From Candidatus Blackburnbacteria bacterium (lineage in GTDB: Bacteria > Patescibacteriota > Microgenomatia > UBA8517 > UBA10165), in NCBI GenBank assembly GCA_016183565.1, contig JACPEJ010000001.1:48196-112195 (forward strand): DNA of 64,000 nucleotides, given 5' to 3'. Every line of letters starts with the position of its first letter. Position 1 is the first letter of the stretch. The notes under the pieces are model-generated. The model saw nothing but the letters and a program-made list of their open reading frames with translations, was not told the DNA's origin and ran no database searches. Positions 3,990 to 17,949 of this stretch are shown here, piece after piece. A program made the position numbers and the translations under genes.

Positions 3990-5498
3990 TTATCTATTCC
4001 TAACTACTATCCTCTTCTCTACCTTTATCTTGCCTATCATGGTTTCTTCAACAAGTTTTGTTCCTTCCTGCATTAGTTTTAGTTGTTTTTGTTGTTTTTC
4101 CAGATTGCCTCCTTCTTCAATTACTAAGAATCTAAATTTGTCACAACCAAGTGTAGGTGTTGAATAATGCTCACTTCCTGGCACATAAAGATATTTTAAT
4201 GAGGCAGGATAGTTGGAGTATTCACAGGGTACGTATTTATAAACCTTGCGGCCATACCACCAAAAAAGGTATTGATAAGGATAATCGTAGAAAGAAGGCA
4301 TATAGATATAAACGTTAAATCCATCATTTTCTGCGTTTTTGTAAACCCAATCGACAACAGAGATTTTACTGGCTAGAATTCCGGGATCATTTGAGGGATG
4401 AAGGTATTCTGTATACCTTTGTTTAAAAACAAGTAGCTGTGAAGCCATAACCAAAAAAAATATGGGTAGGCCGATTTTCCAAGGCTTGCTAAAAAGTATT
4501 AATAAGGTCGAGGTGAAAAGGAGGGGTGGCAAGTAGGGGTCGTGCCAATCTTGCCAACCTTTGTTTGCAGAGAAGAATAAATAAGAAACAGCAAAAAGGG
4601 CAAGAGTAAGGGAAACAAATTTTTTAGTAAAATCATCTTTCTTTTGCTTAAGCCAAATTAATAAAACTCCAAACAAAAAAATGCTCAAGACCAAGCTTTG
4701 TGGAATCAAAGAATCTCTGATAATTTCCAGGAATGCTTGGGTTACAGTACTAAAGTTGGTTCCAGAAAAAGTACCCAGGGCAGAACCTTGATCAAAATGC
4801 ACTAGAGTGAATACTTGTTTTGGGATTCCTGCTAAAAATAATATGGGAAAGAAAAAATTGGAAAGAATCAGAGTTTTCCATAATAATCGGCCATTTTTGA
4901 CTCCCCATAATCCAACAAGAAAATAAAAGACAAACATTGCTGCTGCACCTGCAACTTCGGTATTAAAAGCAAGTCCGATGGGGATGAAAGCCAAAAAGTA
5001 GCTTTTTTTGTTACCTTCCAGGAAGCTTATTAATAAGAGGATAAGAACCACAGAGAGAAAAACTAAAGGAAAGGGATTAAATGCCCAGCGGGAAGTGTCG
5101 TAAAAAAACCAGAATCCTTGTAGGGCAATTCCTACTAAAAGTCCGGCCTTGGGGGAAACCTTTTTTCCTATCTGCCAGATTAAAAGAGCGGTTGTAGCAA
5201 GACTTAATAAAATAACCATGAACAAAGCACCGAAGGGATGCCCTCCGAAGAGCTTGTAACCTACGGAGATAAAGTAGTACCAGCCGGGACCTGTGTAAAT
5301 TCCTGATATTCCTGTCATTGGGCCTTTAAAAAGGATTTGTCCCCTATCAAAGAGTTCTCTTGCGTGTACTGCATCGTCGCCTTGGTCGATTGTGAAGAAG
5401 AAGTTGTTGTTTTGGATGGGAATAATGCGAAGGATGTATGCAAAGATTAAGATTAAGATAAAAAGGAGCCAAAATAGTTTTTTGCTCATGGGTGTCAA
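3990..5498 (-). CDS. polytopic glycosyltransferase, ArnT/PMT-like (GT83/GT39 fold)
   Basis: 502 aa, ~12 TM helices; N-terminal DQGDDAVHARE loop typical of dolichyl/undecaprenyl-phosphate sugar transferases. Confidence 0.65.
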   Translation of the reverse strand: MTPMSKKLFWLLFILILIFAYILRIIPIQNNNFFFTIDQGDDAVHARELFDRGQILFKGPMTGISGIYTGPGWYYFISVGYKLFGGHPFGALFMVILLSLATTALLIWQIGKKVSPKAGLLVGIALQGFWFFYDTSRWAFNPFPLVFLSVVLILLLISFLEGNKKSYFLAFIPIGLAFNTEVAGAAAMFVFYFLVGLWGVKNGRLLWKTLILSNFFFPILFLAGIPKQVFTLVHFDQGSALGTFSGTNFSTVTQAFLEIIRDSLIPQSLVLSIFLFGVLLIWLKQKKDDFTKKFVSLTLALFAVSYLFFSANKGWQDWHDPYLPPLLFTSTLLILFSKPWKIGLPIFFLVMASQLLVFKQRYTEYLHPSNDPGILASKISVVDWVYKNAENDGFNVYIYMPSFYDYPYQYLFWWYGRKVYKYVPCEYSNYPASLKYLYVPGSEHYSTPTLGCDKFRFLVIEEGGNLEKQQKQLKLMQEGTKLVEETMIGKIKVEKRIVVRNR

Positions 5499-6382
5499 AA
5501 TAATTTTCGGATTACCCCGTTTATTAAGTTAGAGTTGGAAGGGATAATTGTTTCAATTTCGTATTTATTGCATATAGCTTGGGCAAATGCACTACAGGCT
5601 CTTGCACCGTGCATCCATTGGGGGTTGTCGTTCATCAAGGACTCAAGTTCGTTTAAGGTTACTTGAGAGAAAATTTCTTCGTTTCTTTTTGCAAAGTTGT
5701 TTGTTTGTATAATCGAGGGATGGTCCGAATCTTCAAAAAGCTTGTTTTTTGAAAGAGTATAAGAAGCAAGACTCATATAGGTCAATTCTCCGCCTGTGTA
5801 AAACGCAATTTTTACTTTTTCTTTTATCTCCGGTAATTTGGGAGTAACAAATTCTATAACACGGGACAGAGTGACACTTGAGTAGGTTTCGTTTATATTT
5901 GAAAATTCTGAGATTATACTTCCTACACCCAAGTCGATGTTGTAGTGGTTACTTGAATCACGGTTTACTATAACTAGTTCTGTAGATCCACCACCGATAT
6001 TGATTAACAGAATTGGTTCATTTGTTGGATATTTTCCTACAAGAGCTAGCTCTAGAAATTCACTTTCTTCCTCTGGGCTGATTAGCCTGAATTCAATGTC
6101 CCCTACTTTTTGTATTCCATCAACCAAGCTTTTAAGAACAATTGGAGAAAGTTTACGGAAAACAGCTGTTGCATAAACGCAAAATTTAACTTTAGGATGT
6201 TTACTTTTTAGTTTTCTTAAAAAGTTTAAAAGGTCGGTCTTGTTGATTTCGGATATGCCTTTTTCGCTAAACCCTTCTTTGAAGGGAATGCTTTTTGTGC
6301 AGGCCAGTTTTAGGTTTGGCTTGTTGTAGGTATAAGCTTTGACACTTGAGGAGCCGAGGTCAATAAGTAGTAACTCTTCCAT
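5495..6382 (-). CDS. Ppx/GppA-family phosphatase-like (ASKHA fold)
   Basis: N-terminal LLIDLGSSSVK and NIGGGSTELV motifs characteristic of Ppx/GppA; overlaps the upstream gene by 4 nt. Confidence 0.55.
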   Translation of the reverse strand: MEELLLIDLGSSSVKAYTYNKPNLKLACTKSIPFKEGFSEKGISEINKTDLLNFLRKLKSKHPKVKFCVYATAVFRKLSPIVLKSLVDGIQKVGDIEFRLISPEEESEFLELALVGKYPTNEPILLINIGGGSTELVIVNRDSSNHYNIDLGVGSIISEFSNINETYSSVTLSRVIEFVTPKLPEIKEKVKIAFYTGGELTYMSLASYTLSKNKLFEDSDHPSIIQTNNFAKRNEEIFSQVTLNELESLMNDNPQWMHGARACSAFAQAICNKYEIETIIPSNSNLINGVIRKLF

Positions 6383-6435
6383 TTTTTTCTATTGTAGCAA
6401 CTTGACAAGTAATACTGCGTATGTAAAACTGATTT

Positions 6436-6750
6436 ATTGCGAAAGAAACCCGAACTTATAGAGATAGAGCCACCTATCTAATTGGGGCAGTAGCAAGACG
6501 AAGAAGAAAACTAAAGGAGCTTGCAATTCTTCACAAGAGAGGTGGTTGCATATTTTGTGGTTACTCAAAATATAATGGTGCAACTAGATTTCCATCACAC
6601 AGATCCAACGCACAAGGAGTTTAATTTATCAGTTAGAGGACTCACGCGAAGTTGGGAAAAAATTAAAAAAGAAATCGAAAAGTGTATACTCGTGTGTTAA
6701 AATTGTCACAGAGAAATTCATGCCGGGATAGTGGAACACCCTACTTCGTT
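6436..6750 (+). pseudogene. degenerate HNH endonuclease gene remnant (frameshifts and stops)
   Basis: frame 1 gives ...RGGCIFCGYSKYNG...HRSN followed by stop; another frame gives ILVC(stop)NCHREIHAG; together these form a CxxC...N...CH..H HNH signature broken across frames. Confidence 0.45.
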
Positions 6751-6809
6751 TCTAAAAAGGACCAGACAAATCAGGGCTAAAATGATATAATATCTCTGCT
6801 CGTTTACAT

Positions 6810-7123
6810 TCCCCGGTAGCTCAGTGGTAGAGCGGAAAGCTGTGTTAGCAGCCTTTGAGGGAAACCTCGGAGTGAAAAGTGGGTGAATTCAGGGAACGTC
6901 CTGAGCTTGTCGAAGGATAACCCTGAGCCAAGGGATGTACCAGACGGTACATCCAAGGTGCAGAGACTAGATGATTACATCCAAAGTCGAGCTTGCCTCG
7001 ACATGAGCGCCCACCACCTAAAGCCAGCTCTTGGTCACGGTGAAGAGATAGTCCATGCCGAAGAATTATTAAATGATTCTGAAAGTAACTTTAAGGTCGT
7101 AGGTTCGAATCCTACCCGGGGAG
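6810..7123 (+). tRNA. tRNA-Asn(GUU) interrupted by a group I intron between anticodon positions 35 and 36
   Basis: 7-bp acceptor stem TCCCCGG/CCGGGGA, D-arm GCTC-AGTGGTA-GAGC, T-arm GTAGG-TTCGAAT-CCTAC; exon junction gives anticodon loop CUGUUAA; no encoded CCA. Confidence 0.75.
6844..7085 (+). ncRNA. group I self-splicing intron (242 nt) within the tRNA anticodon loop
   Basis: R element CAGAGACTA (6961-6969) and S element AGAGATAGTCC (7044-7054) forming P7; P1 hairpin GCUGU/guua/GCAGC with U·G at the 5' splice site; terminal G at 7085. Confidence 0.75.
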
Positions 7124-7130
7124 CAAGATA

Positions 7131-7162
7131 GGACGCTTAAGGCACAAAGCGTCCTTTTTTGT
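7131..7162 (+). terminator. rho-independent terminator after the tRNA
   Basis: GGACGCTT-aaggcacaa-AGCGTCC stem-loop followed by TTTTTTG. Confidence 0.6.
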
Positions 7163-7336
7163 TGAATTGTCGGGCAATTCTTGATGTTCGAATTTTCCAT
7201 TTTCAAAATTTCCCAAATTTATATCTGGTAAACATCATAAATCTCTTCATAAAAAGTAATTGAAAAATTGGCAATTATTTTGTATGCTAGTGTCATCAAT
7301 TGGTAAGTAGTGTACTTCCACCAAAGGCGGACAAGT

Positions 7337-7504
7337 ATGGAAAAACTCTTAAAACTCAGAGAAGCGGCAGAGATACTGAGCGTTCACCCCAACACCCTTC
7401 GGCTTTGGGATCGCAAGGGTATTTTGGTGGCGGTACGCATTGGGGAGAAGAAAATCAGACGCTATCGTCTTGAGGATATTAAGAGGTTTATCAAGAAAAA
7501 ATAA
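7337..7504 (+). CDS. small HTH DNA-binding protein (MerR/excisionase-like)
   Basis: LREAAEILSVHPNTLRLWDRKGIL helix-turn-helix; AAGGCGG RBS-like motif 6 nt upstream of the ATG at 7337. Confidence 0.6.
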   Translation: MEKLLKLREAAEILSVHPNTLRLWDRKGILVAVRIGEKKIRRYRLEDIKRFIKKK

Positions 7505-7505
7505 T

Positions 7506-8336
7506 ATGACCAAAAAACAACAAAAAATTCAAGTTAAAGGTATCGAAATCGTAACCTTTAAAAAGAATGAAAACGACTATATTTCCCTAACTGATATTGC
7601 TCGGTATAAGGACAAAGATCGGAGTGATTACATTTTACAAAACTGGATGAGAACTAGGAGTGCGATTGAATATCTCGGTTTATGGGAAAAACTTTATAAC
7701 CCTAATTTTAATTCCATCGAATTCGATGGGTTTAGAAAACAGTCTGGTTTGAACAGTTTTGTGCTTACTCCTAAGAAATGGATTACTCAAACCAACGCCA
7801 TTGGGATCGTCTCAAAGGCAGGAAGATACGGAGGCACCTATGCTCACTTAGATATTGCTTATGAGTTCGCTTCGTGGATTAGTGCTGAATTTAAACTGTT
7901 TCTAATCAAGGAGTTTCAAAGACTCAAGCAGGAAGAAAACTTGCGACTAGAGCAGGGCTGGGATATCAAGCGTATGCTGGCTAAGATCAATTACAAAATT
8001 CACACTGATGCAGTTAAAGCTCACTTAATTCCTGCCAATATTTCAAAGAACAGGATTAACATGGTTTATGCCAATGAAGCAGATGTACTTAACGTAGCTT
8101 TATTTGGCAAGACGGCTAAGGATTGGCGTGATGAGAATAAGAGTAAGGATGGCAACATCCGCGATTACGCTGATGTTACCCAACTAGTCGTGCTAGCCAA
8201 CCTGGAAGGTATTAATGCAGAGCTGATCCGTCAGGGACTATCTCAACCGGATCGTTTATTACAACTTAATCAAATTGCCATATCCCAGATGCAATCTTTG
8301 CTGGGAAGTAGCAGTGTGAAGAAGTTGAAAGCCTAA
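7506..8336 (+). CDS. KilA-N domain protein
   Basis: N-terminal IEIVTFKKNENDYISLTDIARYK... matches the KilA-N DNA-binding domain; typical of phage/mobile regions. Confidence 0.65.
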   Translation: MTKKQQKIQVKGIEIVTFKKNENDYISLTDIARYKDKDRSDYILQNWMRTRSAIEYLGLWEKLYNPNFNSIEFDGFRKQSGLNSFVLTPKKWITQTNAIGIVSKAGRYGGTYAHLDIAYEFASWISAEFKLFLIKEFQRLKQEENLRLEQGWDIKRMLAKINYKIHTDAVKAHLIPANISKNRINMVYANEADVLNVALFGKTAKDWRDENKSKDGNIRDYADVTQLVVLANLEGINAELIRQGLSQPDRLLQLNQIAISQMQSLLGSSSVKKLKA

Positions 8337-8395
8337 AATTCAACTGTCCGGAAAAATGTCCGGAAAAACCGGATGGTTCAAAAATAAGAATATAA

Positions 8396-9829
8396 ATGAC
8401 TATGAATAACCAAATTAAATGTCCCTACTGCAACAAGTCGTTTGAGCCAACTGACGCTTATAAGCATGAACTAGAAGAAAAGTTACTTAGTGAAACTCAA
8501 CAAAAGCATCAGGAGGAAATCGATAAATTAAAGCTTGAGAAGCAAGAGCTTAGTATTGCCAAGGATAAAGAGTTAGAAGAAGCCAAGAAGCAGGTGGCTG
8601 AAACCGTACGCACAGAGGTTGAGAAAGAGATCAAACAAGAGTTACAAGACAAGATGGATGCGACTCAGGAACAAGCTGAAAATCAGGCGAAACGAAACAC
8701 CAAACTGCAGGAACAACTTGAAGAACAAACTAAGCTTGTGGGTGAAATGAAGAGTGAAAAAGATAAACTCCGCTTAGCACATGAGCAGGAGTTGGAAGAA
8801 ACGAAAAAGAAAACAACAGAAGCAGTTCGCCAGGAAGCCGAAAATAAGATAAGGAAAGAATTCGAAGTAAAGGTGGCATCAAGCCAAGAGGAGGCACAAG
8901 AGAGAGAAAAGCAAAATCAAGAGCTTCAAAAACAAACTGTTGAGCTCATGAAGCAACTGAGAGAATCCAAAGACGCAGAGGGTAAACTGAAAATTCAATT
9001 TGAGAGGATGTTGCTTGAAGAACAAGACAAAATCAAACAGGACGCGAAAAAGGAAACTGAAGATGCCTGGAATTTGAAAATGGCGGAAAAAGACAAACAA
9101 CTAGAAGATGCTCGCAAAGTTAATGTGGAATTACAAAGAAAACTTGAACAAAAATCGCAACAACTCCAAGGTGAAGTGCAAGAACTAAAGTTGGAAGAAC
9201 AACTCAAAGGTGAATTTCTCTTCGATGAAATAAGTGAAGTTCCCAAGGGTAGGGGCGGTGCAGATACAATCCAGGTGGTAAGAACCCAGTCAGGAGTTGT
9301 CTGTGGAACGATAGTCTGGGAGTCAAAACGGGCCCAAAGATGGGATCAAAAATGGATACAAAAGCTTCTTGATGATCAGCGTGCGGTTAAAGGAGATCTG
9401 GCTGTGTTAGTTTCCAACGTTTTCCCTGATTCTGTTAAAGGGTTTGGGATGGTTGAGAGTATTTTTGTTACAGATCTACCATCTGCACTTAGTGTCGCCT
9501 ACTTATTAAGGCAACAGCTGATGAAGGTACATTCAACCCAGATTGCCAACAGTGACAAGACAACGAAGGCAGAGATTGTTTATAACTATTTGATCAGTAA
9601 CGAATTTAAACAACGGATTGAGGTTTGGGTTGAGTATTTCAGAGAGAGGCAGGAAAAAATAAATAAAGAAAGAGTCTATTTCATCAAAAAATGGCAGGAA
9701 GAAGAAAAAAGTATTCATAAGGTTATCGCTACAACTTCTGGGATTTATGGTGATTTACAGGGATTGATCGGAAATGCTTTACCTAAGGTAGGTTATTTAG
9801 AGTTGCCGGATTCTGTAGAAGAAAAATAA
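8396..9829 (+). CDS. zinc-ribbon plus long coiled-coil protein with DUF2130-like C-terminal domain (possible PD-(D/E)xK-like fold)
   Basis: CPYCNKSF at the N-terminus, ~250 aa of E/K/Q-rich coiled coil, C-terminal GGADTIQVV...GTIVWESKR; 12-nt gap to the downstream helicase gene. Confidence 0.5.
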   Translation: MTMNNQIKCPYCNKSFEPTDAYKHELEEKLLSETQQKHQEEIDKLKLEKQELSIAKDKELEEAKKQVAETVRTEVEKEIKQELQDKMDATQEQAENQAKRNTKLQEQLEEQTKLVGEMKSEKDKLRLAHEQELEETKKKTTEAVRQEAENKIRKEFEVKVASSQEEAQEREKQNQELQKQTVELMKQLRESKDAEGKLKIQFERMLLEEQDKIKQDAKKETEDAWNLKMAEKDKQLEDARKVNVELQRKLEQKSQQLQGEVQELKLEEQLKGEFLFDEISEVPKGRGGADTIQVVRTQSGVVCGTIVWESKRAQRWDQKWIQKLLDDQRAVKGDLAVLVSNVFPDSVKGFGMVESIFVTDLPSALSVAYLLRQQLMKVHSTQIANSDKTTKAEIVYNYLISNEFKQRIEVWVEYFRERQEKINKERVYFIKKWQEEEKSIHKVIATTSGIYGDLQGLIGNALPKVGYLELPDSVEEK

Positions 9830-9841
9830 TTAAAATAGACA

Positions 9842-12800
9842 TTGAATATGAGCAATTCTTCACCACCACTCCAGACAAAATTACTCCAAAGAGCAAAAAA
9901 TAGCGATGAGTTTAATTTGTATGTGGCGGGTATAGAATGGGATCTTATTGAGCCAATTGTCATTGAAGACCGTGACGATATGCACTCCGAAAAGAAGTGG
10001 AGTGAGTTGTTGGAGCCATATTACCACCAAGTTACGAACCTGATTACATTTTGCCGTAGATTGCCAGTTACTTTATTAGCTGATGATGTTGGTTTAGGTA
10101 AAACAATTAGTGCTGGATTGGTGACAAGTGAATTAATGGCTCGTGGCAGAGTAACAAAAATACTTATTGTTTGTCCTAAATTATTAATGTTTCAGTGGAA
10201 GGAAGAGTTAGAAACTAAGTTTGGTATATCTTCCGTTATTGCTACTGGCAGAGACTTAATTAAAGCTACTCCACCAGGAGAGTTGGGAGCAGTGATAACT
10301 ACTTATGATTCTGCCCGTCTCCATCTCGATAAAATTTCTGACGTTGGTTACGAAATGTTGATTTTAGATGAAGCTCATAAGCTGCGAAATTTGTATGGTA
10401 TTGACCCGCCTCCTAAAAGAGCGGTTCGTTTTAAGCAAGCACTAGAAGATCGATTATTCAAATATGTTCTCATGCTTACTGCTACGCCGATTCAAAATAG
10501 GCTGTGGGATATTTATTCTCTAGTTGACTTACTGACTACTGCAAGGGGGCACGAAAATCCTTTCGGGAATCCGGGGATTTTTGCCCGCAGATTTATTGCG
10601 GACGCCAGGACAAAAGCCCGTCAATTAGTGCCATCAATGAAAGATGAGTTTCGGTCAATTGTCTATGGCTATATGTCACGGGTGAGACGAGCAGACGCAA
10701 ATCTTTATTTTCCTGAAAGAACTGTGCAGCTTCACAAGGTCACACCGACCCCTGACGAATTGAAGTTAATTGACATCATTGCTGAGCCAATTCAAAAGCT
10801 GAATCGTCTAGCACAAATCTCAATCCTCCAAGCACTCACAAGTAGTCCTCATGCTTTGTCAGCTCAATTAAAAAATATGGCGCGCAATGGAACCATCCCG
10901 GAGTCGTTATCATTGGAGGTTAGCGCTGTCGTTGAAAATATGAATGGCTCGGCAAAACTAAAAGGCCTCAGTACTCTTATTGACAAACTTGAAACTGAAA
11001 GACCGAATGATTGGAGATTAGTTATTTTTACTGGTCGTCGTGAAACTCAAACCACAATTGAGGAATTTTTGGGGAAACGAGGAATTACTTGCGGGCTAAT
11101 CAATGGAGATTCTGGGTTAAGGAACCAAGAAACTATAACTCAGTTTAAACAAAAACCTCCGGACATTCATGTAATTGTCTCAACAGAAGCTGGAGCTGAG
11201 GGTATAAATCTTCAAGCTGCTAATGTACTGGCTAACTACGATTTGCCGTGGAATCCAATGATTGTTGAACAAAGAGTAGGTCGGATTCAGAGGTTGGCCT
11301 CCGAGCATGCAAAGGTAAGCATTTTCAATATTATCTTGTCAAATACATTTGAAGAATACATCGTTGCTAGGCTTATGGAAAAACTCCAAATGGCCTCACA
11401 GGCAATTGGTGATGTTGAAGCAATGCTTGAAGCATCCGGGCTGGACGAGGATGAAAATGGATCGGTTGGTTTTGAGGAAATGGTAAGGCGACTTGTTATC
11501 GATTCTTTGGCAGGTAAAGATGTAGAAGTAGCAACAAAAATCGCTAGTGAAAGCATAACGAAGGCTAAGACTAAACTTAAGGAGGAACAAAAAAACATCA
11601 GTTCTATGTTAGGTACTATGGGGGATGCTTCTGAGTTTGGTCCTCGATGCCCAAGTTTACCGAAGCTAAATCACTCCATGGATATACGTGATTTTGTTTT
11701 GACTGCTCAAGAAGGCTTTGGTGCAAAAATAACTCCCCAATCTAAGGGAATATATTTTTGTGAACTTAATGATGAAAAAGAATCAATATATTTTGAGGAA
11801 AAAGATAACGGTCGAATAGACGGGGTGTTGTACGCGCAAGGTACATCTGCCTTTGAACGTTTGGTAAGTAAAGTAATTAGTAAACGACTTCACGATGTTG
11901 AAGATCTGGACAAAGATCTTGAATTAAACACGCAAGAAACCATACGAGGATGGGTCAGCAGTTTTAATGGTGCATTTAAAGAAACAGAAACAAACAAAGT
12001 CTGGAACTGTTTTGAAGGGACAGCTCTTATCAGGGTTCGTTCAACTGTAGCGCATGATAGTTATGAACGATTAGTTAGCATCGAATGCTTGTCCAAAGAT
12101 CATAAGATAGAAGTCAGACCAAAGAATCTCAAGCCCTTGGGAGAATTTATTGATGGACACTTAGGAGTTGGTGTGGTCCCAGACCAGTTGGTTGAAAAGG
12201 CAATGCTTGATGAAGGGATAGATGAATTTTGTCGTTTTTATAAAGAGAGAATGGTTCAGGAAGTGGTTGCTGCAGGCAGTGATTTACGCAAGAAAAAGAA
12301 ACTAGAAGATGAATTTACACCAAGAGTGGAAATGAGCTTAGTAGGATTGGTTGGCACGATGCACCGCCAATTACAAGTCGATGTTGCATACGATATTGAT
12401 TCCATTGCTGAGTATAAGAGCTCAATACTTGTTTTGCCTTTTAAAAAGGAGGTAATTGAAGCGCCAGTTTTGTACAAATGTGAATCAACAGGAGAGGAAG
12501 CCCCTCATGATTGTCTGGGCATATGTGATATTAGTGGACGTAGAGTACTACGTCACTTACTTGTAAGTTCTGAAGAAAGCGGAAGGAAAGCTCTGCCTGA
12601 ATATATTAGAACATGCGCTCTTTCAGGCAAAAAGGTTCTAAGTGATGAAATCGAAAAGTCAGCAATCACAGGCGAATCCGTTACAAGTTCTCTACTTAAA
12701 ACTTCAGCTTTAAGTGGCAAACGTGCAGAACTAAAGTTCTTTGGAACTTGTGAATTCACCTCTGCAGAAGTTCTCGAGGATGAATTGGCAATAAGCCAGA

Positions 12801-13552
12801 TTTCAGGAAAAAAATACAGAATGGATGAGCAACTTCAGTCTGTAGTTTCTAAGAAGACTGGTCATAAACAAGAATTTATTTTTTGTGCTGAGACGGGACA
12901 ACCTCTGTTGTCAACGGAGACAGAGACATGTGAGCTAACTAAAAAGGTTGTTATTCCCGGCCTACTTGAAACGTGTGAAGTATCTAAGAAAAAAGTTCTA
13001 CCTGCAAAGCTAGAAAAATCAGCACTTTCAGGCAAAAAAGCACTCAAGAAATACTTTGTATCAAGTAGTATTTCAGATGCACGACTACTTGAAGGAGAAG
13101 CAATTAGGTCAGTTGATGGCAATTTCTGTTCTCCTTTGGAGGCTAAAAGGTGTTCGTGGAGTGATCGAGAATGTCATTCGGATGATTTAAAGATTTGTAA
13201 TTTAACAGGTCTTCCTATTTATCTAGAGTATGTGACTAGGAAGAAACCGAGTCGATTAGAGCCACTTGTTGACCTCTTGGGAAATATCAGAAGGACGGCT
13301 GACGAGGGGGAGACTTGGGTAGCAGTCGCAGAGAAAGCTTCAACAATTCTCAAGATGAAAGGTTGTAAGGTGGAGTCTGCAGTTCTATCTCCAGATAAGG
13401 GAAAATTGGCGGTATGTATAGAGGTAAAGACTTGGTTGGGTTTGAAAGTTCGCTATGCGGGGTTGGTTTTTCTGATAAAAGATGAAGAAGTCATTGGGAA
13501 GATATCTTTAGGTAGACGCGAAAAAGGAAACTGGTTAATGGAGAATTCTTAA
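9842..13552 (+). CDS. SNF2-family helicase (DEAH ATPase core) with ~450-aa C-terminal extension containing tandem SGKK-type repeats
   Basis: motif I LLADDVGLGKTISAG, motif II LILDEAHKLRN, TATPIQNRL, helicase-C QRVGRIQRLAS; C-terminal repeats SALSGKK/AITGESV/QISGKK and Cys-rich tail. Confidence 0.85.
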   Translation: MNMSNSSPPLQTKLLQRAKNSDEFNLYVAGIEWDLIEPIVIEDRDDMHSEKKWSELLEPYYHQVTNLITFCRRLPVTLLADDVGLGKTISAGLVTSELMARGRVTKILIVCPKLLMFQWKEELETKFGISSVIATGRDLIKATPPGELGAVITTYDSARLHLDKISDVGYEMLILDEAHKLRNLYGIDPPPKRAVRFKQALEDRLFKYVLMLTATPIQNRLWDIYSLVDLLTTARGHENPFGNPGIFARRFIADARTKARQLVPSMKDEFRSIVYGYMSRVRRADANLYFPERTVQLHKVTPTPDELKLIDIIAEPIQKLNRLAQISILQALTSSPHALSAQLKNMARNGTIPESLSLEVSAVVENMNGSAKLKGLSTLIDKLETERPNDWRLVIFTGRRETQTTIEEFLGKRGITCGLINGDSGLRNQETITQFKQKPPDIHVIVSTEAGAEGINLQAANVLANYDLPWNPMIVEQRVGRIQRLASEHAKVSIFNIILSNTFEEYIVARLMEKLQMASQAIGDVEAMLEASGLDEDENGSVGFEEMVRRLVIDSLAGKDVEVATKIASESITKAKTKLKEEQKNISSMLGTMGDASEFGPRCPSLPKLNHSMDIRDFVLTAQEGFGAKITPQSKGIYFCELNDEKESIYFEEKDNGRIDGVLYAQGTSAFERLVSKVISKRLHDVEDLDKDLELNTQETIRGWVSSFNGAFKETETNKVWNCFEGTALIRVRSTVAHDSYERLVSIECLSKDHKIEVRPKNLKPLGEFIDGHLGVGVVPDQLVEKAMLDEGIDEFCRFYKERMVQEVVAAGSDLRKKKKLEDEFTPRVEMSLVGLVGTMHRQLQVDVAYDIDSIAEYKSSILVLPFKKEVIEAPVLYKCESTGEEAPHDCLGICDISGRRVLRHLLVSSEESGRKALPEYIRTCALSGKKVLSDEIEKSAITGESVTSSLLKTSALSGKRAELKFFGTCEFTSAEVLEDELAISQISGKKYRMDEQLQSVVSKKTGHKQEFIFCAETGQPLLSTETETCELTKKVVIPGLLETCEVSKKKVLPAKLEKSALSGKKALKKYFVSSSISDARLLEGEAIRSVDGNFCSPLEAKRCSWSDRECHSDDLKICNLTGLPIYLEYVTRKKPSRLEPLVDLLGNIRRTADEGETWVAVAEKASTILKMKGCKVESAVLSPDKGKLAVCIEVKTWLGLKVRYAGLVFLIKDEEVIGKISLGRREKGNWLMENS

Positions 13553-13563
13553 AATTAAAAAAT

Positions 13564-14229
13564 ATGCAAAACTCATATCTTCATTCTAGGTTAAGTTCAA
13601 TTCAGAAACAGTTAATTGCTCATCACGAAGGAGGAAGCCCTAGCTCTACCTCTAAAGGAAGAGAGCGAGAGGATTTTATCAATAGTTATCTTGAAAAGAT
13701 AATGCCCCCAGTGTTTCGCTTTGGTTCTGGAGAGGCAATTGATGCGAATGATAAAGTTACAGGTCAACTTGATTTGGTTGTTGAGTATCCATTGTTTCCT
13801 AGCCTTCACCAACCAGGTGGAAAACCCAGACTGTATGTTGCCGAAAGCATCGCAGCAGTCATAGAAGTAAAATCTGATTTGAGTACCCAGTGGGAAGAAG
13901 TTCTTAGTACAGCTAAAGCAGTAAAAGATCTTTACCGCGGTTGGGGAGGAAATATCTTGATTGGTGACGAAAGATTCGCAAAAACTATTCCAGTGTTTGC
14001 AGTAGGTTATGAAGGATGGGCAAAGGAAGAGACGGTGCAATCAAAGCTGATTGATAGCGGCGTTGACGCAATTTTGGTAATAGACCCTGGTATTTTTGTT
14101 GCAAATGAATTGTTTAGTCTAAAGAAAAGTTTTCAGGGGCCTTGGGCTCTTTGGGGATTTTTTACTTGTTTATATTTAGCTTTTGATTCAATAAAAGTTT
14201 TACAAGCTGATTTAGAGAATTACGCCTAG
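13564..14229 (+). CDS. PD-(D/E)xK nuclease-like protein (Hjc/restriction-endonuclease-like core)
   Basis: GQLDLVVEY ... AAVIEVKSD arrangement (D..E.K); 11 nt after the helicase stop, consistent with an operon. Confidence 0.5.
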   Translation: MQNSYLHSRLSSIQKQLIAHHEGGSPSSTSKGREREDFINSYLEKIMPPVFRFGSGEAIDANDKVTGQLDLVVEYPLFPSLHQPGGKPRLYVAESIAAVIEVKSDLSTQWEEVLSTAKAVKDLYRGWGGNILIGDERFAKTIPVFAVGYEGWAKEETVQSKLIDSGVDAILVIDPGIFVANELFSLKKSFQGPWALWGFFTCLYLAFDSIKVLQADLENYA

Positions 14230-14260
14230 GTAATTTAAGAAAAATTGGTCAGGAATCGGT

Positions 14261-14385
14261 TGACCTCCTTCACCGTCCACTCCGCCTACGCCAAGGCTTC
14301 GGCGGACACGTCCGGATACTCCCCTCCAGAGGCGGGCGGGCAGCTCGCTGACCCAATCAATTCGTCCAAAATCATACCATCGTTC
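14261..14385. repeat. copy A of a ~120-nt conserved noncoding element (ccttcaccgtccac...gtccggatactcc...cccaatcaattcgtcc...ccatcgttcgagcca)
   Basis: direct-sequence match to 16809-16922; the conserved blocks flank a central hairpin that differs in sequence but not position between copies. Confidence 0.7.
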
Positions 14386-14760
14386 GAGCCAAGAAATTAG
14401 ATACGAACTCGGATTTTGAAGATGAGTTCGTATTGTCTTCTTTGGCTCCCGAATTAAAACCTTCGCAAACCCCGAAGGAGAACAAGTTCCCTACGGGGCA
14501 TGCTTTTGAAATCATTTTGCCAAATCTGATACACAAATCCAAAACCCTCCTTCGCGTAAAGCTATGAAAGGGCAAAGAGCGAAATCTGAAATGATGCGCC
14601 CCGCCACTATTTTTCTGGGGCAAAGGAGGCGGGGCGACGGACTCGTGAGCGCGCAGGAGCGAGGTCTCGGGGAGGCCCTCCAGAGGCGGGTAAAAATCCG
14701 CGCGGGCTTCGGCTTTCTTTTTTGAAAAAATCGGCGGATACAAATTGAGAAAAGATTAGA
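14386..14760. ncRNA. GC-rich noncoding region contiguous with repeat copy A; candidate large structured RNA of unknown identity
   Basis: ~500 nt without a convincing ORF; local GC is far above the surroundings; internal repeat cctccagaggcggg at about 14321 and 14680; GC hairpins. Confidence 0.3.
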
Positions 14761-14824
14761 TTCATGTTAGTCTAGTTGTGAGAGTTAAGTTCAACGCTCA
14801 TACTTATACTATCATACAAAAAGC

Positions 14825-15220
14825 ATGGAGCAAACTGTGCAAGGTGCGATGAATAGGGCAAAAAATGCTTTCAAGGACTGCGACTTTTCTTTTGGATTAG
14901 AGAGTGGGCTTATAGAAGTTCCAAACACGAAAAGTGGATATATGGATATTACAATGTGTGCCATATATGATGGCAAAAATTTTCACTTAGGCGGGTCTTC
15001 TGCTTTTGAATATCCAAAATCTATGATTGATTTGGTTTTTAGCAAAGATTATGACATTGATGAGGCGGCAAAAGAAGCCGGGTTTTCCCATGATGAAAAT
15101 ATTGGCGAAAGAGAAGGAATGATAGGTGCTCTTACGAAGGGACGGCTAAATCGAAAGGGATATAGCAAGCAGGCAGTAATAACTGCTCTTATACACCTTC
15201 TTAATCCAGAGCATTATTAA
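14825..15220 (+). CDS. YjjX/DUF84-like inosine/xanthosine triphosphatase family protein
   Basis: C-terminal GEREGMIGALTKGRLNRKGYSKQAVITAL resembles the YjjX GRKEGAIGVFTAGKLTR...QAVILAL motif. Confidence 0.5.
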   Translation: MEQTVQGAMNRAKNAFKDCDFSFGLESGLIEVPNTKSGYMDITMCAIYDGKNFHLGGSSAFEYPKSMIDLVFSKDYDIDEAAKEAGFSHDENIGEREGMIGALTKGRLNRKGYSKQAVITALIHLLNPEHY

Positions 15221-15229
15221 AATAAATTT

Positions 15230-15619
15230 ATGAACTACAAAGGCGTAATAATCGAGGAAAGTTTAGAGAATAAAGGCATTCTAAAAGATGTCAAAATTTT
15301 AGAGACAAAGGTTGAAGAAGTTGTAGAGGAACACAAAACTCCTTGGATAAAACAATGGACTTTACATACCGTTGAAATTCCAGAAAATCAAGCAAAAGAT
15401 GTCGCAGAAAAATTAAGCAAAATACTAGACTCTGAACATAACTGGTATGCTGATTTCAAAAATGATTCTCACCATTACATCATTTTCCGCGACAAAGTTT
15501 TTTATATTGACCGAAAAAGTAAGGAACAATACGACGAAGCGAAACGCTATGGTATTTCTCTCGAAATACCAGAATATCAAGTAGATTTTGCTCCCGACGA
15601 TAAAATTTGGGAAAGATAA
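15230..15619 (+). CDS. hypothetical protein
   Basis: 129-aa ORF with no recognisable motif. Confidence 0.4.
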   Translation: MNYKGVIIEESLENKGILKDVKILETKVEEVVEEHKTPWIKQWTLHTVEIPENQAKDVAEKLSKILDSEHNWYADFKNDSHHYIIFRDKVFYIDRKSKEQYDEAKRYGISLEIPEYQVDFAPDDKIWER

Positions 15620-15621
15620 TT

Positions 15622-15897
15622 ATGACAACAATTCATAAAAAAGTTTGGCGAGAATATTTTGACAAAATTGTTTCCGGCAAGAAAAAGTTGGAATTACGCC
15701 TTGCTGATTTTGAAGTAAATGAGGGCGACACTTTAGTTTTGGAGGAATGGGACAAGGATAAAAAAGATTATACTGGACGAAAGATTGAAGTTGTCGCCAC
15801 CTATATTCTCAAAACCAAAGGTCAAACTTTTTGGTCGCCGGAGGAAGTTGAGAAATATGGTTTCCAAATTATTCAATTTGAGCCAAAGGAAAAATAA
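15622..15897 (+). CDS. ASCH-like/DUF3850 small protein
   Basis: KKVWREYFDKIVSGKKKLELRLADFEVNEGDTLVLEEW matches the DUF3850/ASCH pattern; the ATG at 15622 is preferred over the TTG at 15607. Confidence 0.5.
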   Translation: MTTIHKKVWREYFDKIVSGKKKLELRLADFEVNEGDTLVLEEWDKDKKDYTGRKIEVVATYILKTKGQTFWSPEEVEKYGFQIIQFEPKEK

Positions 15898-15899
15898 TT

Positions 15900-16205
15900 A
15901 TGGACATCAAGCAAAAAACGGCAGAAACCTACGACAAAATTGCTTCCGGCTACAGCGCAGGACATTTTGCTCATTTTTGGATTGAAGAATTTGATTTTTA
16001 CAAAAACATTACTGACGGTAAAAAAGTCATTGACCTTGGTTGCGGAGCCGGACGAGACGCCGCCGTTTTTGTAGAAAATGGTTTTGATTACACTGGCATA
16101 GATGCTTCGGAGGCAATGCTAAAGGTAGCAAGTGAGAGAGTGGCAAAGGGGAAATTCCAAAAAATGGATTTCAGCAGAACCATTTTCCAAGTAGCTTGTA
16201 GGTAA
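15900..16205 (+). pseudogene. truncated class I SAM-dependent methyltransferase (N-terminal half only)
   Basis: motif I VIDLGCGAGRD is present, but the ORF stops after 101 aa, before the post-I motifs. Confidence 0.5.
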
Positions 16206-16236
16206 CTGTAGCTAAATGTAGGTAATTGCAGGTAAA
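16196..16236. repeat. short tandem repeat tgtaggtaaYtgYag (x3)
   Basis: tgtaggtaactgtagctaaatgtaggtaattgcaggtaa. Confidence 0.6.
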
Positions 16237-16266
16237 AGTTTTCACTGCCACTGAAAACTTTTTTGC
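16235..16266. terminator. bidirectional hairpin terminator between convergent genes
   Basis: GTTTTCA-ctgccac-TGAAAAC, followed by TTTTTT on the plus strand and AAAA upstream on the minus strand. Confidence 0.55.
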
Positions 16267-16274
16267 TAACCCTT

Positions 16275-16745
16275 TTAATTCAACACCACAATCGCCGCAT
16301 TTAGTATGGTAGCAAAGCTGACCCACAAGAGGTACGGCACCAGTAAATAAAATGCTAGTGTTGATAACGGATAAAACTTTTTCATTGTTACCACAATAAG
16401 TACCCACATCGCCACAATTACGATCAATCCCAAAAACGGTGCTCGCAGTCCAAAGAAAACTGGTGACCAGATAAAGTTAAGTCCCAGTTGGGCCAGAAAA
16501 AACAAACCTGCAGTCTTCATCTTCTTTTTCTTCCACCCCTGCTTCCAAATCAAATAAAAAGCCACGCCCATCAGAAAGTACAAAAGCGTCCAAACCGGTC
16601 CAAAGATCCAATTAGGGGGAGCAAAGAAAGGCTTATTCAAGGTGGCGTACCAAATAGGGATAGCAGAGATGGTAAAAGGAGTTCCTAAGAATCCAACTAA
16701 TTCACAGCCAATCACGGAAACAATAAGTTTGGGCAAGTCTTTCAT
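16275..16745 (-). CDS. tspO: TspO/MBR tryptophan-rich sensory protein
   Basis: LNKPFFAPPNWIFGPVWTLLYFLMGVAFYLIW signature; 5 TM helices. Confidence 0.85.
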   Translation of the reverse strand: MKDLPKLIVSVIGCELVGFLGTPFTISAIPIWYATLNKPFFAPPNWIFGPVWTLLYFLMGVAFYLIWKQGWKKKKMKTAGLFFLAQLGLNFIWSPVFFGLRAPFLGLIVIVAMWVLIVVTMKKFYPLSTLAFYLLVPYLLWVSFATILNAAIVVLN

Positions 16746-16808
16746 CTGCCTTTAGTATGAAACAAATTCGGCAAGAGAGCAATCAATATTGCAGAAACCT
16801 CCCTACTT

Positions 16809-16922
16809 CCTTCACCGTCCACCCCCGCCTGCAACGCTATGCGTCGCATTGCGGGCAGGTCCGGATACTCCAACTCCGTTACCCAATCAATTCGTCCGAA
16901 TTCTTCCCATCGTTCGAGCCAG
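16809..16922. repeat. copy B of the ~120-nt conserved noncoding element (see 14261-14385)
   Basis: same conserved blocks as copy A, with a different central hairpin (CCTGC..CGCTATGCG-uc-GCATTGCG..GCAGG). Confidence 0.7.
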
Positions 16923-17025
16923 ATGGGACGGGAGGGCAACAAAGAGTCCTTTTGTCCCGTAACATTCCGGGTTTTAGTGTTAAAATCCTCACGGGAAAAT
17001 GCCTCTGTTTTGGTATAATTGGAGT

Positions 17026-17631
17026 ATGAGGAAGTGGCTAATTTTACTCATCTTTATAATTATCACGCTATTTCTATCTCCGGCTTTGGTTGCAGCTCAA
17101 ACGAACACAGAAAGTGGTGATCACACAGCGCGTGAGGAACAAGAAGGTAAAGAAATTTGGGGTAAGTTACAAGCAAAACAACTTGAGTGTAACAACCTTA
17201 CTGATGAAAACTACGCAGTGCTTGGTGAATATTTTATGGGTCAATCAATCGGTAACACAGAACGACATGCAGCCATGAATCAGATGATGATAAGTATGGT
17301 GGGTGAGCAGGGAGAGGAACAGATGCATGTTGTTATGGGTAAAAGAAATAGTGGTTGTGATACAGGGACGAAGGGAGGTGGAAATCCTATGATGGGATAT
17401 GGTGGTTGGGGTAATATGATGGGGTGGGGATTTGGAATCTTAGGCTGGCTCTTTATGCTTCTGTTTTGGCTGCTTATAATTCTTGGGGTGGTTGCTCTTG
17501 TCCGCTATTTAGGCGGTTCAGGTAAAACTGCTAAAGATGATAAAACTCCTGTGGAGATTCTCAAAGAGCGTTATGCCCGTGGAGAAATTGATAAAAAAGA
17601 GTTTGAAGAGAAGAAAAAAGATTTAGACTAA
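17026..17631 (+). CDS. secreted/membrane protein with C-terminal SHOCT domain
   Basis: signal/TM segment WLILLIFIIITLFLSPALVAA; C-terminal ILKERYARGEIDKKEFEEKKKDL SHOCT motif; TGgTATAAT -10 and GGAG just upstream. Confidence 0.55.
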   Translation: MRKWLILLIFIIITLFLSPALVAAQTNTESGDHTAREEQEGKEIWGKLQAKQLECNNLTDENYAVLGEYFMGQSIGNTERHAAMNQMMISMVGEQGEEQMHVVMGKRNSGCDTGTKGGGNPMMGYGGWGNMMGWGFGILGWLFMLLFWLLIILGVVALVRYLGGSGKTAKDDKTPVEILKERYARGEIDKKEFEEKKKDLD

Positions 17632-17868: not shown

Positions 17869-17949
17869 ATGGCAAAACGAGCATTTTTAATACATGGTTG
17901 GAAAGGATATCCAGAAGAGGGCTGGAGACCTTGGTTAAAGAAAAGTTAG
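17869..17949 (+). pseudogene. N-terminal fragment of a YdeN-like alpha/beta hydrolase
   Basis: MAKRAFLIHGWKGYPEEGWRPWLKKS followed by a stop; matches the start of the YdeN/RBBP9 serine hydrolase family. Confidence 0.45.

What the first reader, a model, noticed from the sequence alone, without database searches (positions are those of the whole stretch)
6810..7123. tRNA-Asn(GUU) split by a 242-nt group I intron in the anticodon loop
The 5' half (acceptor, D-arm, anticodon stem, then C-U-G-U) and the 3' half (U-A-A, anticodon stem, variable loop, T-arm, acceptor) of a canonical tRNA are separated by 242 nt. That insert carries group I hallmarks: R-like CAGAGACTA and S-like AGAGATAGTCC elements that would form P7, a P1 hairpin (exon GCUGU with intron GCAGC) giving U·G at the 5' splice site, and a terminal G. 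Ligating the exons yields the loop CUGUUAA, a typical Asn anticodon loop. The classical bacterial tRNA group I introns I know of sit in Leu(UAA), fMet, Ile(CAU) and Arg(CCU), so Asn(GUU) with an insertion between positions 35 and 36 is unusual. An ORF caller would miss it and instead report the spurious 82-aa ORF at 6883-7131.
Basis: partly seen in the sequence, partly recalled or inferred. Interest (0 to 1): 0.75.

Follow-up and report, generated by a model that had tools for sequence, protein, structure and literature searches.

The report
Self-splicing intron inside a tRNA-Asn gene
A tRNA-Asn gene in a Patescibacteria-like genome is split by a 242-base self-splicing group I intron, a real but already published kind of feature, and a decayed copy of the homing endonuclease gene that travels with this intron family lies just upstream.

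Summary
The observation and the interpretation both hold. Window 6810-7123 is a tRNA-Asn(GUU) gene interrupted between anticodon positions 35 and 36 by a 242-nt group I intron (6844-7085). Rfam RF00028 scores 61.3 bits against a gathering score of 50. ARAGORN finds the gene only when long introns are allowed. A full P1-P10 fold can be drawn, with U35·G at the 5' splice site, a 4-bp P10 and a terminal G. Thirty homologous tRNA-Asn introns support that fold by covariation. P7.1 and P7.2 point to subgroup IA.

The kind is not new. Williams 2020 (tFind, class "Asn.4Ug") and Nakagawa et al. 2026 described tRNA-Asn 35/36 subgroup IA introns in Patescibacteria, and the latter showed self-splicing in vitro. 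Synteny with a Ca. Blackburnbacteria MAG places this window in that group. It is therefore a new member of a known kind.

One extra point came up. At 6436-6742, just upstream of the tRNA, lies a broken HNH gene. Intact relatives were found in 8 of 8 contexts examined, either inside the P1 loop of tRNA-Asn introns or free-standing beside intron-bearing tRNA-Asn genes. This suggests homing assisted by a free-standing endonuclease, which the two papers do not mention.

The parts
6436..6742 (+). Decayed free-standing HNH homing-endonuclease gene (pseudogene) of the family associated with tRNA-Asn 35/36 introns
   Evidence: Three lesions relative to the intact homologue in L246: ATG replaced by ATT at 6436-6438, a +1 frameshift near 6580-6583, and an in-frame TAA at 6698-6700. 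The repaired peptide is up to 78% identical to intact 104-115-aa HNH proteins. It is 49-53% identical to HNH genes encoded inside introns. The Pfam HNH score is 20.6 bits, just under the cut-off of 21.4. An independent assembly, L001, carries the same lesions.
6763..6791 (+). Putative sigma-70 promoter of the tRNA gene: -35 CAGACA, 17-nt spacer, extended -10 TGaTATAAT
   Evidence: It is the best promoter-like site in 6400-7400, matching 10 of 12 positions with TG before the -10. A TATAAT at the same distance upstream of the tRNA is also present in L246, L248 and L255.
6810..6843 (+). tRNA-Asn 5' exon: acceptor arm, D arm, 5' anticodon stem, loop C32-U33-G34-U35
   Evidence: ARAGORN intron mode.
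6836..6856 (+). P1 hairpin: exon 6836-6843 paired with intron 6848-6856 (internal guide sequence GCAGC), U35·G wobble at the 5' splice site, 4-nt loop GUUA
   Evidence: All pairs are standard. The four core pairs are invariant in 30 homologues. The unconstrained MFE fold also predicts it.
6844..7085 (+). 242-nt group I intron, subgroup IA by architecture, with no ORF for an endonuclease
   Evidence: Rfam RF00028 at 61.3 bits. P1-P10 fold. Covariation. MFE z-score -4.55.
6857..6868 (+). P2 with GAAA tetraloop
   Evidence: 96.6% of cells are paired, and 4 of 4 pairs show changes on both sides.
6879..6885 (+). P3 5' strand (pairs with 7008-7014)
   Evidence: 99% of cells are paired, and 4 of 7 pairs show changes on both sides.
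6889..6959 (+). P4-P5-P6 domain: P4 6889-6894/6921-6926, P5 6898-6902/6914-6918, P6 6927-6929/6957-6959, P6a 6933-6941/6946-6954
   Evidence: P4 is 98.3% paired and P6 is 100% paired and invariant. P6a is 88.5% paired with 9 of 9 pairs covarying.
6963..6969 (+). P7 5' strand (R element, with bulged A 6964), which pairs with 7049-7054 (S element); inferred guanosine-binding helix
   Evidence: All six pairs are invariant and standard in 30 sequences. The role in guanosine binding is inferred from established knowledge of group I introns.
6970..7002 (+). P7.1 (6970-6973/6978-6981) and P7.2 (6986-6991/6997-7002), two extra hairpins between P7 and P3'
   Evidence: They appear as a 36-nt insertion relative to the Rfam model at exactly this place. 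All pairs are standard and every pair shows compensatory changes. Only 62-64% of cells are paired, which I put down to length variation in the MAFFT alignment.
7015..7042 (+). P8 (7015-7018/7039-7042) and P8a (7023-7026/7032-7035)
   Evidence: P8 is 100% paired and 3 of 4 pairs covary.
7062..7080 (+). P9 hairpin
   Evidence: It has 8 standard pairs in the window and the MFE fold predicts it. It is absent or different in the closest relatives, which end ...GUCCAAAAAG, so it has no comparative support.
7085..7085 (+). Terminal guanosine (omega-G) at the 3' splice site
   Evidence: Sequence. A G is invariant at this position in the alignment.
7086..7123 (+). tRNA-Asn 3' exon: U36-A37-A38, 3' anticodon stem, variable loop, T arm, acceptor arm, discriminator G73. 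Bases 7086-7089 (UAAC) pair with intron 6844-6847 (GUUA) to form P10. CCA is not encoded
7130..7165 (+). Intrinsic-terminator-like hairpin (9 bp) followed by a T-run, just after the tRNA

Best explanation
Window 6810-7123 is a tRNA-Asn(GUU) gene of a Patescibacteria (Microgenomates-like) chromosome. It is interrupted between U35 and U36 by a compact 242-nt group I intron of subgroup IA that carries no endonuclease gene.

The gene appears to be transcribed from its own promoter (6763-6791) as a pre-tRNA of about 315 nt that ends at a terminator (7130-7165). The intron folds into P1-P9. The internal guide sequence GCAGC pairs with anticodon-loop bases C32-U35, which places U35·G at the 5' splice site. 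An external guanosine bound at P7 attacks that site. The intron's first four bases (GUUA) then pair with U36-A37-A38-C39 to form P10. The terminal G (7085) enters the guanosine site, and the exons are ligated to restore the loop CUGUUAA.

The sequence, the fold, the covariation and the homology to introns of a class proven to splice are shown. The chemistry in this particular RNA, and promoter use, are inferred.

The broken HNH gene upstream (6436-6742) is the remnant of the homing endonuclease that accompanies this intron family. This intron copy is therefore probably fixed and no longer mobile.
For: Detection:
- Rfam group I hit above the gathering score over the full model.
- ARAGORN intron-mode call, and a spliced cloverleaf with anticodon GUU and discriminator G73.

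Fold:
- All 78 proposed pairs are standard pairs in the window.
- On 30 homologous pre-tRNA-Asn sequences, 82.3% of cells are paired, against 69.4% in shuffles and 34-42% when partners are slid.
- The covariation score is 0.320 against 0.121, with 0 of 500 shuffles reaching it.
- P2, P3, P6a and P8 are rich in compensatory changes, and P4, P6 and P7 are invariant.
- The window keeps every invariant column of the alignment.
- The unconstrained MFE fold recovers P1, P2, P3, P6, P7.1, P7.2, P8 and P9, with z = -4.55.

Assembly and context:
- The sequence is identical in an independent assembly.
- Promoter-like and terminator-like sites flank the gene.
- Synteny with a Ca. Blackburnbacteria MAG runs PMT_2, then tRNA-Asn with intron, then Band_7, then dnaN. 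The exons are nearly identical, and they differ in the anticodon stem by a compensatory A29-U41 to G29-C41 change.

Literature:
- Introns of this class and position in Patescibacteria self-splice precisely in vitro (PMC13011429).
Against: No RNA data or splicing assay exists for this sequence. Only 64 kb is visible, so I cannot tell whether this is the genome's only tRNA-Asn gene.

P5, P7.1, P7.2 and P9 have weak comparative support (39-64% of cells paired). I attribute this to length variation in the MAFFT alignment. The subgroup IA assignment rests on architecture and on the published classification of relatives, not on a subgroup covariance model run here.

The mature tRNA would carry a G27·A43 mismatch at the top of the anticodon stem. 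The closest relatives share it, which argues against decay.
Confidence: 0.93

Rival explanations
1. The locus is a dead tRNA gene, and its intron has lost splicing activity, like the endonuclease gene next to it. A functional tRNA-Asn would then be encoded elsewhere in the genome.
For: The adjacent HNH gene is clearly decayed. The mature tRNA would have a G27·A43 mismatch. The rest of the genome cannot be seen.
Against: Every helix is intact, and every column that is invariant among 30 homologues is kept. The G27·A43 mismatch is shared by L003, L025, L049 and L122. Promoter-like and terminator-like sites are present. Nakagawa et al. report that intron-bearing and intron-less copies with the same anticodon rarely coexist in one genome.
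Confidence: 0.04
2. The split tRNA has a different isotype because the splice sites are shifted. The usual alternative is tRNA-Thr(UGU) with the intron at 33/34, as ARAGORN and tFind call some relatives.
For: ARAGORN called 7 related metagenome loci Thr(tgt), one His(gtg) and one Thr(agt). The paper documents this ambiguity.
Against: In the window the intron ends GAAAG and the 3' exon starts UAAC. A 2-nt shift would make the intron end in A and would not give a 7-nt loop. P1 places U35·G at the splice site, and P10 (GUUA with UAAC) fixes the 3' site. Discriminator G73 fits Asn; this last point rests on established knowledge of AsnRS identity elements.
Confidence: 0.01
3. The 82-aa ORF at 6883-7131 is a real protein-coding gene, and the RNA-level features are coincidental.
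For: The ORF exists with a GTG start.
Against: It has no Pfam match. It lies entirely within a region explained by a covariance-model hit at E = 4e-13, and the substitution pattern in homologues preserves base pairs. Homologous introns differ by indels that would break such a frame.
Confidence: 0.01

Closest known systems
Group I introns at position 35/36 of tRNA-Asn(GUU) in Patescibacteria (Nakagawa et al. 2026, mSystems, PMC13011429; class 'Asn.4Ug' of Williams 2020, bioRxiv 10.1101/2020.01.27.920355)
   Same: The host tRNA, the insertion site and the splice-site rule (U at -1, terminal G) are the same. The IA-type architecture with P7.1 and P7.2 matches, as does the compact size; 242 nt falls within the published range of 184-894 nt (mean 257). 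Default tRNA finders miss the gene in both cases. The host lineage is also Patescibacteria, here inferred from synteny with Ca. Blackburnbacteria.
   Different: This is a new sequence, found here only in Logan read assemblies. The closest sampled genome, L003, has a 279-nt intron with a different P6, P8 and 3' end. The window intron has a P9 hairpin that its nearest relatives lack. An HNH pseudogene lies outside the gene, just upstream, an arrangement those papers do not describe.
Classical bacterial tRNA group I introns: cyanobacterial tRNA-Leu(UAA) at 34/35, tRNA-fMet at 33/34, and Azoarcus tRNA-Ile and Agrobacterium tRNA-Arg at 36/37
   Same: All are self-splicing introns in the anticodon loop. 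P1 is built from anticodon-loop bases, and the introns are small and mostly lack an ORF.
   Different: The classical introns are mostly subgroup IC; 81% of bacterial tRNA introns are IC. They occupy other positions and other tRNAs. The window intron has the IA hallmarks P7.1 and P7.2.
Collaborative (trans) homing of endonuclease-less group I introns by adjacent free-standing endonucleases. Examples are cyanophage S-PM2 psbA with F-CphI and phage T4 mobE with I-TevIII (PMC6083498 and PMC2790892, listed; mechanistic details are from my own knowledge).
   Same: An intron without an endonuclease gene sits next to a free-standing endonuclease gene whose relatives reside inside homologous introns.
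   Different: The host here is a bacterial chromosome and a tRNA gene, not a phage protein-coding gene. The endonuclease copy in the window is a pseudogene. Cleavage of the intron-less tRNA-Asn gene by this family has not been tested.

Membership tests
Group I intron (Rfam RF00028) | Covariance-model score at or above the curated gathering score | tested here: met
   61.3 bits against 50, E = 4e-13, full model 1-253.
Group I intron (Rfam RF00028) | P1 formed by the 5' exon and an internal guide sequence, with U·G at the 5' splice site, and a terminal G at the 3' splice site | tested here: met
   U35·G at 6843/6848. GCUGU pairs with GCAGC. G at 7085. These pairs are invariant in 30 homologues.
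Group I intron (Rfam RF00028) | Conserved core of P3-P8 and P4-P6 with the P3/P7 pseudoknot, supported by covariation | tested here: met
   P3 is 99% paired with 4 covarying pairs. P8 is 100% paired with 3 covarying pairs. P4, P6 and P7 are 98-100% paired and invariant. All five whole-structure measures exceed all 500 shuffles and all slid controls.
Group I intron (Rfam RF00028) | Guanosine-dependent self-splicing | not testable with these tools
   Shown in vitro for two introns of the same class in PMC13011429, not for this sequence.
Subgroup IA | Extra helices P7.1 and P7.2 between P7 and the 3' strand of P3 (Michel and Westhof scheme, from my own knowledge) | tested here: met
   Two hairpins, 6970-6981 and 6986-7002, sit at this place as a 36-nt insertion relative to the Rfam model. 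Every pair shows compensatory changes, although only 62-64% of cells are paired.
Subgroup IA | Best score with the IA subgroup covariance models used in PMC13011429 | not tested
   Those models are not available here. 25 of the 28 published 35/36 introns are IA.
tRNA-Asn(GUU) | Cloverleaf after intron removal, a 7-nt anticodon loop with GUU, and discriminator G73 | tested here: met
   ARAGORN calls tRNA-Asn(gtt), 73 nt, on the spliced sequence. The loop is CUGUUAA and G follows the acceptor stem.
Patescibacteria tRNA-Asn 35/36 intron class (Asn.4Ug) | Insertion between positions 35 and 36 of tRNA-Asn | tested here: met
   The same CUGU|...G|UAA junction occurs in about 40 homologous loci.
Patescibacteria tRNA-Asn 35/36 intron class (Asn.4Ug) | Host belongs to Patescibacteria | tested here: inconclusive
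   The closest genome hit is Ca. Blackburnbacteria (Microgenomates), with shared gene order and 45-92% amino-acid identity. A DUF5667 protein and the names given to the HNH homologues point the same way. No marker-gene phylogeny was done.
HNH homing endonuclease associated with tRNA-Asn introns | Homology to endonucleases encoded inside these introns | tested here: met
   49-53% identity to the HNH genes inside the introns of L027, L089, L105 and L115. 65-68% identity to the intronic P0043, P0065, P0079 and P0088, and up to 78% to free-standing ones.
HNH homing endonuclease associated with tRNA-Asn introns | Intact reading frame | tested here: not met
   Start codon lost, +1 frameshift, and in-frame TAA. 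The same lesions occur in an independent assembly.
HNH homing endonuclease associated with tRNA-Asn introns | Pfam HNH (PF01844) above its gathering score | tested here: inconclusive
   20.6 bits against a cut-off of 21.4 for the repaired peptide. The intact homologues score 20.5 and 21.7.
HNH homing endonuclease associated with tRNA-Asn introns | Cleaves the intron-less tRNA-Asn gene at or near the insertion site | not testable with these tools
   Inferred only from genomic association.

The most novel reading that the evidence does not exclude
The small HNH gene family found beside this tRNA is a dedicated partner of the tRNA-Asn 35/36 intron across Patescibacteria. It alternates between living inside the intron's P1 loop and living free-standing just outside the tRNA gene, usually 20-56 nt upstream on the same strand.

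If so, the free-standing copies would mobilise 'endonuclease-less' introns in trans, by collaborative homing. The intron would shield the host's tRNA-Asn gene from cleavage. Many tRNA introns scored as lacking an endonuclease, and therefore judged immobile in PMC13011429, would in fact be or have been mobile. The window would capture the end stage: a fixed intron with a decayed endonuclease gene.
Probability: 0.45. Interest if true: 0.55.

Novelty: new member of a known kind. Interest (0 to 1): 0.3.

Why it matters
For annotation, this locus is likely to be missed by default tRNA finders and replaced by a spurious ORF call. That makes a small genome look as if it lacks tRNA-Asn and lowers completeness estimates, a problem already described for Patescibacteria. 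As biology, the intron adds one more well-supported member to a class whose splicing has been demonstrated.

The less expected part is the endonuclease gene. Its relatives were linked to intron-bearing tRNA-Asn genes in all 8 public contexts examined, inside the intron in 4 and free-standing in 4. If they act in trans, the mobility of bacterial tRNA introns has been underestimated. These loci would then offer natural snapshots of how an intron and an endonuclease gene merge into, or separate from, one mobile element.

Tried and rejected
- **ARAGORN at default settings:** it found no tRNA in the whole window. This reflects its intron-length limit, not evidence against the gene.
- **blastn against 50,697 phage records:** it matched only 32 nt of the T arm, so there is no close phage relative in that collection.
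- **First literature search ('group I intron' + 'tRNA-Asn'):** it returned only organelle-genome papers. A wider search found the relevant paper.
- **Exon/P1 pattern scan of 185,579 species genomes:** the pattern was too strict and gave only 3 loci. That used the single genome scan, so I could not measure how common the class is in GTDB.
- **IA core motif (CCTGAGCCAA...GGTGCAGAGACTA):** it is not specific to tRNA-Asn. Of the 120 viral contigs, 113 hits are not in tRNAs.
- **Rfam at gathering threshold on L003 and L004:** it missed their introns, which shows the limited sensitivity of RF00028 for this class.
- **Search for a second intron or tRNA fragment around the HNH pseudogene:** there is none in 5400-8400 at E up to 1. 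I therefore rejected the idea that the pseudogene is part of a duplicated intron-bearing tRNA.
- **Search for a repeat of the tRNA 3' end that would mark an integrated element:** there is no exact repeat of 14 nt or more, and no 22-mer match with up to 3 mismatches. No integrase was seen among the ORFs scanned. The 'island' downstream therefore rests only on the comparison with L003.
- **The 82-aa ORF:** it has no Pfam match.

Full report
**1. The observation**

The sequence at 6810-7123 reads as two halves of a tRNA separated by 242 nt. ARAGORN at default settings finds no tRNA anywhere in the 64-kb window. With introns of up to 400 nt allowed, it reports tRNA-Asn(GUU) at 6810-7124 with a 242-nt intron. 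The in-silico spliced sequence folds into a 73-nt cloverleaf with anticodon loop CUGUUAA and a G after the acceptor stem.

The only Rfam hit above gathering score in the window is RF00028, the group I intron family. It matches 6832-7073 on the + strand over the whole model, at 61.3 bits against a gathering score of 50 and E = 4e-13. That ORF has no Pfam match.

**2. Anatomy of the intron**

Starting from the Rfam alignment, I drew a complete fold and checked that all 78 pairs are standard pairs.
- **P1:** exon 6836-6843 pairs with intron 6848-6856. This puts U35·G at the 5' splice site and leaves a 4-nt loop, GUUA.
- **P10:** the same four bases (GUUA) are complementary to the first four bases of the 3' exon (UAAC). 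This 4-bp P10 fixes the 3' splice site after G7085.
- **P2:** carries a GAAA tetraloop.
- **Core:** P3 (6879-6885 with 7008-7014) and P7 (6963-6969 with 7049-7054, with a bulged A) form the usual pseudoknot around the P4-P5-P6 domain.
- **P7.1 and P7.2:** two extra hairpins (6970-6981 and 6986-7002) lie between P7 and the 3' strand of P3. They show up as a 36-nt insertion relative to the Rfam consensus. By established knowledge they are the hallmark of subgroup IA.
- **P8 and P9:** these follow. No ORF for an endonuclease lies inside the intron.

An unconstrained MFE fold recovers P1, P2, P3, P6, P7.1, P7.2, P8 and P9, with a z-score of -4.55 against shuffles. The 2-nt-shifted alternative that makes some relatives look like tRNA-Thr(UGU) is not available here, because the intron ends GAAAG and the exon starts UAAC.

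**3. Comparative support**

A scan of one genome per species with an exon/P1 pattern found three loci. They come from Ca. Blackburnbacteria, Ca. Nealsonbacteria and a groundwater MAG labelled Cyanobacteria. All three are tRNA-Asn(GUU) genes with introns of 196-279 nt.

ARAGORN placed 24 of those cores in tRNA-Asn(GUU). It called 7 more Thr(UGU); their junctions read as Asn with the shifted call the paper describes. Others were called Gln(CUG), Arg(CCG), Tyr(GUA) and Asp(GUC).

I aligned 30 pre-tRNA-Asn sequences and counted pairs for my structure.
- 82.3% of cells form standard pairs, against 69.4% in shuffles and 34-42% when partners are slid.
- The covariation score is 0.320 against 0.121, and 0 of 500 shuffles reach any of the five measures.
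- P2 (4 of 4 pairs), P3 (4 of 7), P6a (9 of 9) and P8 (3 of 4) carry changes on both sides.
- P4, P6 and P7 are invariant and paired.
- P5, P7.1, P7.2 and P9 score lower (39-64% of cells paired), because these parts vary in length and MAFFT does not align them by structure.

The window keeps every invariant column. An independent read assembly (Logan SRR12113430) is identical across the whole locus.

**4. Host and context**

The window is chromosomal. It holds dnaA, dnaN, yidC, ribosomal protein L25, a class I aminoacyl-tRNA synthetase and tsaD.

The 8-kb Ca. Blackburnbacteria locus (Patescibacteria, Microgenomates group) has the same local order: PMT_2 glycosyltransferase (65% amino-acid identity), tRNA-Asn with intron, Band_7 (92%) and dnaN (45%). 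Its exons are nearly identical. They differ by a compensatory A29-U41 to G29-C41 change in the anticodon stem. A DUF5667 protein points the same way, as do the organism names attached to the HNH homologues. I therefore place the window in Patescibacteria. No marker-gene tree was made.

A promoter-like site (CAGACA, 17 nt, extended -10 TGaTATAAT; 6763-6791) and a terminator-like hairpin (7130-7155 plus a T-run) bracket the gene. CCA is not encoded.

**5. How it most likely works**

The pre-tRNA folds so that the internal guide sequence presents U35·G. An external guanosine bound in P7 cleaves after U35. P10 aligns the 3' exon, G7085 replaces the cofactor, and the exons are joined. This yields tRNA-Asn(GUU), which can then be modified and charged.

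The fold, the splice-site geometry and the homology are shown. The chemistry is inferred from the family. It is backed by in vitro splicing of two introns of this class, where RT-PCR confirmed the junction and a terminal-G mutant served as control (PMC13011429).

**6. Comparison with what is known**

The classical bacterial tRNA introns sit in Leu(UAA), fMet, Ile(CAU) and Arg(CCU), and are mostly subgroup IC.

Williams (2020, bioRxiv 10.1101/2020.01.27.920355) expanded the list to 21 classes with the tFind tool. Nakagawa et al. cite one of those classes as Asn.4Ug.

Nakagawa et al. (2026, PMC13011429) report the following:
- 15 tRNA-Asn(GUU) genes with introns at 35/36 in 95 complete Patescibacteria genomes;
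- 19 of the 28 introns at 35/36 across 4,934 bacterial genomes come from that phylum;
- 25 of those 28 are subgroup IA;
- the introns self-splice in vitro;
- standard tools miss or mislabel these genes.

The window matches that class in every feature I could test, so it is a new member of a known kind.

**7. An extra finding: the endonuclease gene**

At 6436-6742, on the same strand and ending about 70 nt before the tRNA, lies a broken gene. Compared with an intact homologue, it has lost its ATG (now ATT). It also has a +1 frameshift near 6581 and an in-frame TAA at 6698-6700. The independent assembly shows the same lesions.

The repaired peptide is 49-53% identical to HNH endonucleases encoded inside tRNA-Asn introns of four metagenome loci. 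There the ORF fills the P1 loop, between the 5' splice site and the guide sequence. A search of the large protein collection gave 1,460 relatives of about 100-115 aa, with a best identity of 78%. Where named, they are called HNH endonuclease from Patescibacteria lineages.

I looked up the genomic context of eight of them.
- Three (P0004, P0006, P0037) are intact and lie 20-56 nt upstream, on the same strand, of a tRNA-Asn gene with an endonuclease-less intron. This is the window's layout.
- One (P0001) lies 650 nt from such a gene, on the other strand.
- Four (P0065, P0079, P0043, P0088) lie inside the intron.

Three further loci (L106, L163, L015) have a relative 42-164 nt downstream of the tRNA. 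In a rough neighbour-joining tree, free-standing and intronic copies are intermixed. No intron-less tRNA-Asn gene was seen next to any of these genes.

The published work counts only intronic endonuclease genes and infers limited mobility. It does not mention free-standing copies. My reading is that this is a partnership between an intron and an endonuclease, like the collaborative homing known in phages, and that it has decayed in the window. It rests on association only; target cleavage is untested.

**8. Verdict**

The finding is real and correctly interpreted, and it belongs to a published, experimentally validated class. Interest in the intron itself is modest. The link to the endonuclease gene deserves a systematic survey.

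Noticed in passing
window 6436-6742 (+): An HNH endonuclease pseudogene lies directly upstream of the tRNA. It has lost its start codon and carries a +1 frameshift and an in-frame TAA. Intact relatives sit either inside tRNA-Asn 35/36 introns or free-standing next to intron-bearing tRNA-Asn genes, in 8 of 8 contexts checked.
   Followed up: yes
window about 7130-24300, compared with L003:1469-4585: The window has about 17 kb between tRNA-Asn and the Band_7 gene (24363-25127), where the Ca. Blackburnbacteria locus has about 3.1 kb. The extra DNA starts at the tRNA 3' end. It encodes an HTH_17/MerR-type protein, KilA-N, DUF2130, a 1236-aa SNF2 helicase, DUF6602, NTPase_I-T, TspO, SHOCT, MerT/HMA, MFS and a pyridine-nucleotide disulphide oxidoreductase. 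This may be a genomic island at the tRNA, but no integrase and no repeat of the tRNA end was found.
   Followed up: partly
L001 (Logan SRR12113430 contig), end corresponds to window 7122: An independent assembly that is 100% identical across the tRNA locus stops exactly at the last base of the acceptor stem. L249 and L250 also stop shortly after the homologous HNH gene, near the start of the tRNA. This fits population variation or repeats at the tRNA boundary.
   Followed up: no
metagenome loci L006-L125: Among the 120 metagenome loci with the same IA core motif, ARAGORN places 37 introns in 'tRNA-Gln(CUG)'. It also Arg(CCG), 4 Tyr(GUA), 2 Asp(GUC) and a few others. The isotype calls were not verified against the shifted-boundary problem. 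An HNH relative also lies near the 'Gln' gene of L023.
   Followed up: no
113 of them are outside any tRNA call and are presumably introns in phage protein-coding genes. One 436-kb viral contig (L163) carries an intron-bearing tRNA-Asn, called Thr(tgt) by ARAGORN, with a free-standing HNH gene 42 nt downstream.
   Followed up: no
window 34373-38855: dnaN (34373-35536, -), dnaA (35720-37120, -) and yidC (38070-38855, +) are clustered here. The 950-nt gap at 37121-38069 is a candidate replication origin. AT skew is positive in the first ~17 kb and negative from about 32 kb, wavering around zero in between.
   Followed up: no
window 27685-33308 (+): A type IV secretion-like cluster is present: a PrgI-family protein, a VirB4/TraG-type P-loop ATPase (670 aa) and a 644-aa protein with an M23 peptidase domain. 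A PAS histidine kinase precedes it.
   Followed up: no
window 6836-6843 / 7089-7093; L003, L025, L049, L122: The mature tRNA-Asn would have a G27·A43 mismatch at the top of the anticodon stem. The closest relatives share it, so it looks like a clade feature rather than damage.
   Followed up: partly
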